UHGV virus genome: UHGV-1688096
Strand: one strand, 5' to 3'
Source of the DNA: a virus
DNA length: 10,974 nucleotides
A program made the translations under genes and the position numbers. Numbering within the stretch: position 1 is the stretch's first letter; each line of letters opens with the position of its first letter. The notes under the pieces are model-generated. The model worked only from the letters and a program-made list of their open reading frames with translations. It ran no database searches and had not been told where the DNA came from. Of the stretch, positions 1 through 657 are shown piece by piece.

Positions 1-488
1 TCTGGCAGCCTGAGTTCACAGATAAAACACTCTCCAGGAAACCCGGGGCGGTTCACCTCGCCAACGCGATCGGCAAACTCAACTTTAGGTGCGGCAATTG
101 CGAGCTGGTTTTCCAGTTGCATTTTCTGCTCAGCAAGATCAGCAGCAAGGCGCAACGCTTCTGGTAGCGTTTTGGGGATATTAACCGCAGCTTCTTCAAG
201 CTCTCGCCAGCGGTCAACAAGGCGAGCGGTGAATTCCGGCGACAACTGGGCAACAACGACAATACTGTCTCGCTTACCTTGTTCGCCTTCGAAAACGTAA
301 TGCTCGTACTGAACATTGAACCCTAAGTTATTGATTCTTTCGGAAACCTCAATTTGAGGAAGCCGGATAACACCATTTTTAGCCAGCGTTTCGATGGTAC
401 GTTTCACATTGTCATGACGCTTACCGACCAACTCAGCGATTTCAATGCTTGTCATTTTGATGGCATTGCCATTTATTAACTCATTCAT
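1..488 (-). CDS. Phage antirepressor, Rha-like N-terminal domain plus KilA-C-like C-terminal region; partial, 3' end beyond window edge
   Basis: Hand translation of minus strand from ATG at 488-486 gives MNELINGNAIKMTSIEIAELVGKRHDNVKRTIETLAKNGV... then ...TLPEALRLAADLAEQKMQLENQLAIAAPKVEFADRV..., open to position 1 with no stop. GAGGAAG Shine-Dalgarno just upstream. Absent from ORF track because it has no stop in window. Motifs match my recollection of Rha and ANT/KilA-C families; not searched. Confidence 0.7.
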   Translation of the reverse strand, partial: MNELINGNAIKMTSIEIAELVGKRHDNVKRTIETLAKNGVIRLPQIEVSERINNLGFNVQYEHYVFEGEQGKRDSIVVVAQLSPEFTARLVDRWRELEEAAVNIPKTLPEALRLAADLAEQKMQLENQLAIAAPKVEFADRVGEVNRPGFPGECFICELRLP

Positions 489-657
489 CGTCTTCTTCCT
501 CGTACATTGAGCTATTCGGATCGCTCATAAGCTCTGCGCAGCAATCGGAGCACACGTGAACTTCCAGAACATGCAGCTTCTGACCGCAGTTAGCGCACGT
601 TAAAGCTCGCTCGACGCTTTCTTTCTGGTATTGGATGGATTGGGATTGGCTAAGCAT
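481..657 (-). CDS. ninF: NinF-like small zinc-ribbon protein (58 aa)
   Basis: Minus-strand [61 protein letters not shown] with CxxC...CxxCC pattern and acidic tail; start overlaps stop of upstream gene and its stop overlaps the antirepressor start. Below the 60 aa cutoff of the ORF track. Name from remembered similarity to lambda/P22 NinF. Confidence 0.5.
   Translation of the reverse strand: MLSQSQSIQYQKESVERALTCANCGQKLHVLEVHVCSDCCAELMSDPNSSMYEEEDDE

What the first reader, a model, noticed from the sequence alone, without database searches (positions are those of the whole stretch)
1..657. Rha/KilA-C antirepressor inserted in the nin region after a NinF-like gene; C-terminal sequence looks atypical
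In lambda and P22 the nin string continues from ninF into ninG/rap. Here the NinF-like gene is followed, with overlapping start and stop, by an antirepressor-type gene. After the KilA-C-like segment ...APKVEFADRV the translation continues GEVNRPGFPGECFICELRLP to the window edge, which does not look like the usual continuation of this domain to me. That could mean a domain fusion, a recombination junction or simply divergence. An antirepressor driven by the late pR transcript would couple induction to anti-immunity against related prophages.
Basis: partly seen in the sequence, partly recalled or inferred. Interest (0 to 1): 0.5.

Follow-up and report, generated by a model that had tools for sequence, protein, structure and literature searches.

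The report
IS629 insertion breaking prophage roi gene
The odd-looking protein tail is the end of a common E. coli jumping gene (IS629/IS1203) that has landed inside roi, a well-known lambdoid-phage gene, and cut off its second domain; this is an ordinary, already documented kind of prophage damage.

Summary
On the minus strand a NinF gene (481-657) overlaps by ATGAATGA an Rha-type gene that starts at 488 and runs off the left edge. Its translation turns from ...APKVEFADRVGE into VNRPGFPGECFICELRLP.

The cause is neither a domain fusion nor divergence. Window 1-55 is the right terminal inverted repeat of the 1310-bp IS3-family element IS629/IS1203. It matches 55/55 bases, ends in the canonical ...CA, and occurs in 4042 of 5426 complete E. 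coli genomes next to unrelated genes.

Window 56-3657 is 100% identical to two assemblies in which the gene is an intact 240-aa Rha + ANT/KilAC protein. That protein is 88% identical to an ORF at the roi position of phage HK022. So roi is interrupted after codon 144, keeps the Rha domain and loses almost all of the KilAC domain.

A roi gene after ninF is a long-known arrangement (HK022, H-19B, HK620, Stx phages). IS629 insertions in roi are published for phages PA27 and PA52, and I found a third in strain ETEC4085 that yields the same NRPGFPGECFICELRLP tail.

This exact insertion site was not found in any collection searched. Whether the rest of the IS and of roi lie beyond the window cannot be seen. 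Low interest.

The parts
1..55 (+). Right end (IRR side) of an IS629/IS1203 element (IS3 family); the last base, 55, is the terminal A of ...GGTTCA
   Evidence: 55/55 identical to the right ends of 1310-bp elements annotated 'IS3-like element IS1203 family transposase'. Found in 4042/5426 E. coli genomes, median 3 copies, next to unrelated genes. The reverse complement TGAACCGCCCCGGGTTTCCTGGAGA pairs with the left end TGAACCGCCCCGGAAATCCTGGAGA.
2..13 (+). Last three codons and the stop (LAA*) of the IS transposase ORF, antisense to roi
   Evidence: In L002 and L003 the transposase CDS ends 13 bases into the stretch matching window 1-55. Window 2-13 translates to LAA*.
56..488 (-). 5' part of roi: codons 1-144 plus one base; Rha domain at residues 12-99, then the linker and the first ~19 residues of the ANT/KilAC domain
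   Evidence: 100% DNA identity to L009 and L013, where the gene is intact at 240 aa. Pfam Phage_pRha. phrog_63 'anti-repressor Ant' matches residues 1-144, E 1e-50. The intact allele is 88% identical to the HK022 ORF between helicase and Q.
3..56 (-). Read-through tail VNRPGFPGECFICELRLP: a translation of the IS inverted repeat, not part of Roi
   Evidence: The same tail NRPGFPGECFICELRLPDH... arises in E. coli ETEC4085, where the IS sits at another roi position in the same reading phase.
56..58 (.). Presumed 3-bp target-site copy (CCT) flanking the IS; inferred, because the other copy lies outside the window
   Evidence: IS629 duplicates 3-4 bp (PMC3271280). 3-bp duplications are seen at the two other roi insertions: ACC in PA27 and TTC in ETEC4085.
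481..657 (-). ninF (58 aa); its stop overlaps the roi start (ATGAATGA, 481-488)
   Evidence: Pfam NinF, E 8e-14; sequence.
650..1066 (-). ninX (138 aa from the ATG used in L007 and L009)
   Evidence: Pfam Phage_P22_NinX, E 1e-13; 138-aa gene call in L007 and L009 (136 aa in L013).
1063..1239 (-). ninE
   Evidence: Pfam NinE, E 7e-43.
1236..1646 (-). ninB
   Evidence: Pfam NinB, E 6e-54.

Best explanation
A copy of the IS3-family insertion sequence IS629/IS1203 has transposed into roi, the Rha + ANT/KilAC gene that follows ninF in this lambdoid prophage's early-right (pR) operon. The insertion lies one base after codon 144, and the transposase gene is antisense to roi. Only the last 55 bases of the IS fall inside the window. 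Reading roi's frame into the IS terminal inverted repeat gives the 'atypical' tail VNRPGFPGECFICELRLP. Shown: the junction, the identity of both sides, and the existence of the uninterrupted allele in otherwise identical prophage DNA. Inferred: that a full 1310-bp element is present; that it is flanked by a 3-4-bp target duplication with roi codons 145-240 and then ybcO-rusA-ninH-Q beyond it; that the product would be 144 Roi residues plus about 78 IS-derived residues; and that this product has lost the function that needs the KilAC domain. The IS may also reduce transcription reaching Q, though the prophage encodes an N-type antiterminator, which should lessen polarity.
For:: window 1-60 matches 23,221 places in 4042/5426 E. 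coli genomes, under 'IS3-like element IS1203 family transposase', next to unrelated genes (lipocalin, porin, tape measure, cas5e); the element is 1310 bp with matching inverted ends TG...CA, and window 1-55 equals its last 55 bases; three-way alignments put the switch from roi to IS exactly between window 56 and 55; window 56-3657 is 100% identical over 3602 bases to L009 (GCA_012625505.1) and L013, which carry an intact 240-aa gene followed by YbcO, RusA, NinH and an antiterminator; the intact allele has Rha at 12-99 and ANT at 126-228; profile homology of the window's protein ends at residue 144; independent 1310-bp insertions in roi of phage PA27 and strain ETEC4085, each with a 3-bp duplication; removing the IS and one duplicate restores a 240-aa ORF, and ETEC4085 gives the same read-through tail. 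Literature: IS629 interrupting roi in PA27 and PA52 (PMC4587872); 62% of IS629 copies in four O157:H7 genomes lie in prophages or prophage-like elements, with 3-4-bp duplications (PMC3271280); an N-peptide antiterminator is encoded at 7294-7566.
Against: Only 55 bases of the IS are visible, so a complete element, the target duplication and the 3' part of roi are all unverified. The exact junction was not found in complete E. coli genomes, phage records, GTDB species representatives or JGI metagenome contigs. Neither the 162-aa fragment nor the predicted 222-aa fusion is in the 15-billion-protein collection. The event is therefore known from this sequence alone. No functional data exist for the truncated product.
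Confidence: 0.93

Rival explanations
1. The IS end is real, but the event is not a simple insertion. An IS-mediated deletion, inversion or recombination between IS copies has removed or relocated the 3' part of roi and perhaps the downstream ybcO-rusA-ninH-Q genes, leaving a truncated prophage.
For: The other junction is outside the window. [quoted passage not shown] The L002 copy has non-matching flanks (CTC / CCT).
Against: The two other roi insertions I could inspect are simple, with 3-bp duplications and both gene halves present. Nothing in the 10.9 kb to the right shows decay: window 56-3657 is 100% identical to intact prophages.
Confidence: 0.2
2. Assembly artefact: the 55 IS bases were attached to the end of a contig by the assembler at a repeat, and roi is intact in the real genome.
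For: The window starts exactly 55 bases inside a multi-copy repeat, which is what a de Bruijn contig end at k=55 would look like (inference). The junction is not seen in any other collection.
Against: The switch occurs exactly at the canonical terminal ...CA of the IS, not at an arbitrary shared k-mer. roi and the IS share no sequence at that point that could cause a false join. Real insertions of the same IS in the same gene and orientation exist.
Confidence: 0.04
3. A genuine domain fusion, a divergent C-terminus, or a phage-phage mosaic recombination joint that creates a new Rha-X protein.
For: None beyond the open reading frame continuing to the window edge.
Against: The tail is encoded by DNA that is 100% identical to an IS terminal repeat present thousands of times in E. 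coli. On the opposite strand it contains the transposase stop codon. The same tail appears where the IS sits elsewhere in roi. The uninterrupted allele aligns colinearly with 933 phage records at 80% coverage or more.
Confidence: 0.01

Closest known systems
roi::IS629 alleles of Stx2a phages PA27 and PA52 (PST1-3 and PST1-6; Yin et al. 2015, PMC4587872)
   Same: Same IS: 1310 bp, with an identical 55-bp right end. Same target gene family (roi after the nin genes). Same orientation, with the transposase antisense to roi. The KilAC domain is disrupted and the annotated N-terminal fragment reads into the IS.
   Different: The insertion point is 34 nt further downstream (after roi nt 467 versus nt 433 here), so the read-through tail is in another frame (EPPRVSWRVFYL*). 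The roi allele and the phage background differ: a Sepvirinae Stx phage with NinG, against a prophage type here whose uninterrupted copies carry ybcO-rusA downstream.
Roi of coliphage HK022 (Clerget & Boccard 1996, cited in PMC3430580 and PMC4587872)
   Same: The uninterrupted allele of this gene is 88% identical over all 240 residues to the HK022 ORF between the DnaB-like helicase and Q. Same position in the pR operon and same Rha + ANT/KilAC architecture.
   Different: Here the gene is cut after codon 144. Residues ~22-65 of the Rha domain are the most diverged part. The DNA-binding and IHF-related behaviour reported for HK022 Roi was not and could not be tested.
IS629 / IS1203 / IS3411 isoforms (IS3 family)
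   Same: Terminal sequence, TG...CA ends, 1310-bp length of the matching full copies, two-ORF transposase with programmed frameshift in those copies, and a preference for prophage DNA (PMC3271280).
   Different: Only 55 bases are in the window, so the isoform and the completeness of this copy are unknown.
E. coli ETEC4085 roi::IS3-family insertion (NZ_CP122634.1)
   Same: Same IS and orientation. Same downstream genes as in the uninterrupted relatives of this prophage (DUF1364/YbcO, RusA, NinH, antiterminator). Same reading phase, so the same NRPGFPGECFICELRLP tail.
   Different: It is inserted after roi nt 694, so only the last 9 residues of Roi are lost and both domains stay essentially intact.

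Membership tests
IS629/IS1203 (IS3 family insertion sequence) | Terminal inverted repeat with the family's 5'-TG...CA-3' ends | tested here: met
   Window 1-55 ends ...CCCGGGGCGGTTCA at base 55. Its reverse complement matches the left end of the full copy at 22 of the first 25 positions.
IS629/IS1203 (IS3 family insertion sequence) | Sequence identity to the named element | tested here: met
   55/55 identical to the right ends of 1310-bp elements that PGAP names 'IS3-like element IS1203 family transposase'. 55 bases cannot separate the IS629, IS1203 and IS3411 isoforms.
IS629/IS1203 (IS3 family insertion sequence) | Multi-copy, dispersed, flanked by unrelated DNA | tested here: met
   23,221 places in 4042 of 5426 E. 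coli genomes, up to 50 per genome, next to unrelated genes.
IS629/IS1203 (IS3 family insertion sequence) | Complete element with orfA/orfB transposase made by programmed -1 frameshift | not testable with these tools
   Only the last 12 bases of the transposase ORF (LAA*, window 2-13) are in the window. The exact junction was not found elsewhere.
IS629/IS1203 (IS3 family insertion sequence) | 3-4-bp target-site duplication | not testable with these tools
   The left junction is outside the window. 3-bp duplications are shown for the analogous roi insertions in PA27 (ACC) and ETEC4085 (TTC).
Roi-type Rha + ANT/KilAC phage DNA-binding protein | N-terminal Phage_pRha domain | tested here: met
   PF09669 at residues 12-99, 37.9 bits against a cut-off of 29.9.
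Roi-type Rha + ANT/KilAC phage DNA-binding protein | C-terminal ANT/KilAC domain | tested here: not met
   No PF03374 hit in the window's 162 residues. The intact allele has it at 126-228 with 112 bits. This copy is therefore a truncated gene (pseudogene), not a full member.
Roi-type Rha + ANT/KilAC phage DNA-binding protein | Location in the nin region between ninF and the Holliday-junction resolvase/ninH/Q genes | tested here: met
   ninB-ninE-ninX-ninF-roi in the window. roi-ybcO-rusA-ninH-antiterminator in the identical uninterrupted loci. Annotated roi at this place in H-19B, HK620, CUS-3, HK629 and mEpX1.
Roi-type Rha + ANT/KilAC phage DNA-binding protein | Close sequence relationship to HK022 Roi | tested here: met
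   The intact allele is 88% identical over 240 aa to the HK022 ORF at record positions 34655-35377. That record carries no annotation there, so calling the ORF roi rests on position and on the literature (PMC3430580).
True antirepressor (binds and inactivates a phage repressor, as P22 Ant does) | Demonstrated or inferable interaction with a CI-type repressor | not testable with these tools
   No computation here bears on it. The database names 'anti-repressor' (phrog_63; RefSeq) are transferred from domain similarity.

The most novel reading that the evidence does not exclude
roi may be a recurrent, orientation-specific target of IS629/IS1203. There are three independent insertions, at roi nt 433, 467 and 694, all antisense. 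The Rha-only truncation made here might act as a dominant-negative or altered regulator that changes prophage induction, as PMC4587872 speculated for Stx production in PA27 and PA52.
Probability: 0.07. Interest if true: 0.35.

Novelty: already known. Interest (0 to 1): 0.07.

Why it matters
It matters little for biology and somewhat for annotation and for the scan. The gene should be called a roi pseudogene interrupted by IS629/IS1203, not a new Rha fusion protein. An odd C-terminus that runs into a window or contig edge is a typical signature of read-through into an IS terminal repeat, and can be screened for cheaply by matching window ends against IS ends. IS629 position is a known source of variation between otherwise identical prophages. 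In one Stx phage pair it changes spontaneous induction and virulence (PMC10810198), so an isogenic pair (this prophage versus the uninterrupted L009/L013 form) could be used to ask what Roi does. That is a routine experiment rather than a discovery.

Tried and rejected
1. I looked for the same junction elsewhere to see the far side of the IS. These searches found nothing:
- megablast of window 1-700 and 1-140 against 5,426 complete E. coli genomes and 50,697 phage records;
- exact 44-mer and 23-mer junction patterns against GTDB species-representative genomes and JGI metagenome contigs;
- exact look-up of the 162-aa fragment and of a modelled 222-aa fusion protein.
Only insertions at other roi positions turned up.

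2. H72 (O111:H8) seemed to cover the window from base 1. Its IS1203 copy sits about 6 kb away, between DUF2560 and terminase-region genes, so it is not the same event.

3. The promoter and terminator scan of 1-700 found no promoter-like site and two weak terminator-like hairpins, one inside the IS repeat at 46-34. Shuffles give 0.9 on average, so I do not treat this as evidence of polarity.

4. I tested whether the right end of the window is also a repeat, which would suggest a contig bounded by repeats. It is single-copy ea22-like DNA.

5. The original Roi paper (PMC178163) is not held. Statements about Roi's biochemistry rest on citing papers and on my memory.

6. I judged structure prediction and remote-homology searches unnecessary and did not run them.

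Full report
**What is in the sequence**

The window is the early region of a lambdoid (P22/HK620-like) prophage.
- The plus strand carries a CI-type repressor (5815-6522; HTH + Peptidase_S24) and an N-type antiterminator (7294-7566).
- The minus strand carries cro/cII-like genes, replication genes including a DnaB-like helicase, and then the nin genes:
  - ninB, 1236-1646;
  - ninE, 1063-1239;
  - ninX, 650-1066;
  - ninF, 481-657.

The minus strand is therefore the direction of the early-right (pR) operon. Immediately after ninF, an ORF starts at ATG 488-486 and overlaps the ninF stop in the string ATGAATGA. It runs off the left edge of the window. Pfam finds a Phage_pRha domain at residues 12-99, above the curated cut-off. 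It finds no ANT/KilAC domain in this fragment.

**Where the homology stops**

Megablast of the nin segment against 50,697 phage records gave hundreds of hits annotated roi, DNA-binding protein Roi, KilA or anti-repressor. These include H-19B, HK620, HK75, HK629, mEpX1, CUS-3, Kapi1, Gally and many Stx phages. Every one of them ends at window position 56 or to its right. The same holds for 5,426 complete E. coli genomes. A PHROG profile (phrog_63, 'anti-repressor Ant') matches residues 1-144 and no further.

**What lies left of the junction**

Window 1-60 alone matches 23,221 places in 4042 of 5426 E. coli genomes (median 3 per genome, up to 50). Each place is at the end of a gene annotated 'IS3 family transposase' or 'IS3-like element IS1203 family transposase'. 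The neighbouring genes are unrelated: lipocalin, porin, a tail tape-measure gene, cas5e, pilM.

In a full copy (L002) the element is 1310 bp. Its ends are inverted repeats, TGAACCGCCCCGG... on the left and ...CCCGGGGCGGTTCA on the right. Window 1-55 equals its last 55 bases, and window 2-13 on the plus strand encodes the last residues and stop (LAA*) of the transposase.

Three-way alignments show the window following roi up to ...GTTGGCGAGG, read on the minus strand. It then follows the reverse complement of the IS right end, base for base, from TGAACCGC onward. The tail VNRPGFPGECFICELRLP is therefore a translation of an IS629/IS1203 terminal repeat on its non-coding strand.

**The empty site exists**

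A look-up of contigs encoding the identical NinF protein returned three loci with the same gene string. Two of them are 100% identical to window 56-3657 over 3602 bases: L009 (GCA_012625505.1) and L013 (a Logan assembly of SRR10231132). L007 differs at a single base.

In all three the gene is intact at 240 aa and is followed by ybcO (DUF1364), rusA, ninH and an antiterminator gene. The same order is seen in L001. The intact protein continues ...ADRVGEASGILIGNFAKVVGIGPNKLFAWMRDHK... and has Rha at 12-99 and ANT/KilAC at 126-228.

This exact 240-aa sequence was seen on 127 contigs and belongs to a 90%-identity cluster of 2355 members. Relatives covering at least 80% of its length occur in 933 phage records. 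It is 88% identical over its whole length to an ORF lying between the helicase gene and Q in phage HK022, the phage in which roi was defined (PMC3430580).

**Interpretation**

An IS629/IS1203 element has inserted into roi one base after codon 144, antisense to the gene.
- The truncated gene keeps the Rha domain and the linker.
- It loses about 84 of the ~103 residues of the KilAC domain.
- If the element is like the copy in L002, the read-through product would be 222 aa: 144 from Roi and 78 from the IS. That figure is a model, not an observation.

Three things lie outside the window and are inferred: the rest of the IS, the 3-4-bp target duplication expected for IS629 (PMC3271280), and the 3' part of roi.

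The IS might reduce transcription reaching Q. The prophage encodes an N-type antiterminator, and the terminator-like hairpins found are no more than chance gives, so I make no claim about polarity.

**Precedents**

Yin et al. [quoted passage not shown] They speculated that this could raise toxin production.

I examined PA27. A 1310-bp IS with the same 55-bp end and the same orientation sits after roi nt 467, 34 nt from the site here (nt 433). It is flanked by a 3-bp duplication (ACC). Removing the IS and one copy of the duplication restores a 240-aa ORF.

A third independent case is E. coli ETEC4085. The same IS, in the same orientation, sits after roi nt 694 with a TTC duplication and the same downstream genes. 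It is in the same reading phase as here, so its read-through tail is also NRPGFPGECFICELRLPDH.... This shows directly that the tail comes from the IS.

More generally, 62% of IS629 copies in four O157:H7 genomes lie in prophages or prophage-like elements (PMC3271280). IS629 position is the main difference between some closely related Stx phages and can have phenotypic consequences (PMC10810198).

- The nin-region position is not an anomaly. The slot after ninF is a known variable slot. Among loci with the identical NinF, it holds the 240-aa Roi, an 89-aa ORF or a 70-aa ORF. In L003, which has a different ninF allele, it holds an HNH endonuclease. Roi is its classical occupant.
- The 'domain fusion' and 'divergence' options are excluded. 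'Recombination junction' is true only in the sense of transposition.
- The antirepressor/anti-immunity idea has no support here. The name comes from domain similarity. Papers citing Clerget & Boccard 1996 describe HK022 Roi as a DNA-binding protein affecting lytic growth (PMC3430580, PMC4587872). My recollection of that paper, which I could not read, is that Roi binds a site within its own gene next to an IHF site.

**Limits**

The exact junction was not found in any collection I could search, so this particular allele is unrecorded there. I could not see its far side.
- The window begins exactly 55 bases inside a multi-copy repeat. This is what a short-read contig end would look like, but that is conjecture, and the other end of the window is single-copy DNA.
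- A mis-join is unlikely. The switch falls precisely on the terminal nucleotide of the IS, and roi and the IS share no sequence there.

**Verdict**

The explanation is mundane and already documented in kind: a roi pseudogene created by IS629/IS1203 insertion.

Noticed in passing
window 56 (roi nt 433); L015 2255/2256 (PA27, roi nt 467); L016 2555/2556 (ETEC4085, roi nt 694): Three independent IS629/IS1203 insertions in roi alleles, all with the transposase antisense to roi, two of them only 34 nt apart. Three of three in one orientation is not significant (chance 1 in 4), but it could hint at a regional target preference.
   Followed up: partly
L003 7854-8420; L004-L013 around 3170-3900: The slot right after ninF is variable. 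With the identical NinF protein it holds the 240-aa Roi, an 89-aa ORF with no Pfam hit, or a 70-aa ORF. In L003, with a different ninF allele, it holds an HNH endonuclease.
   Followed up: no
window 4431-4465 and 4497-4531 (with an 11-nt sub-period, 4486-4520): Iteron-like direct repeats (GTGGTAATTTGCTGGTAATCTGCTGGTACA, 94% identical copies) inside the replication-initiator-like gene 4019-4918. They show up in the protein as [10 protein letters not shown] repeated. This is probably the phage replication origin, as in the lambda O gene.
   Followed up: partly
window 9453-9833 (+): A 126-aa ORF ending in DDSIPF, which from memory resembles the acidic C-terminal tip of bacterial SSB. It has no Pfam hit at E<=0.01 but matches PHROG 44 'single strand DNA binding protein' (E 3e-27). 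It sits just after the ERF recombinase gene.
   Followed up: partly
window 6563-6859 (+): A 98-aa ORF with a hydrophobic N-terminus, immediately downstream of the CI repressor gene in the rex/moron position. It matches PHROG 18389 (unknown function) end to end and has no convincing Pfam hit. It could be a lysogen-expressed exclusion or defence gene.
   Followed up: no
window 1 and window 10855-10974: The window starts exactly 55 bases inside the IS, as a k=55 short-read contig end would. The right end is single-copy ea22-like DNA (37 of 5426 genomes, about one place each), so only the left edge looks repeat-bounded.
   Followed up: partly
L014 3656-4378 (HK022 record 34655-35377): The RefSeq HK022 record in this collection annotates nothing between the helicase gene and Q, although a 240-aa ORF 88% identical to this Roi lies there.
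   Followed up: no
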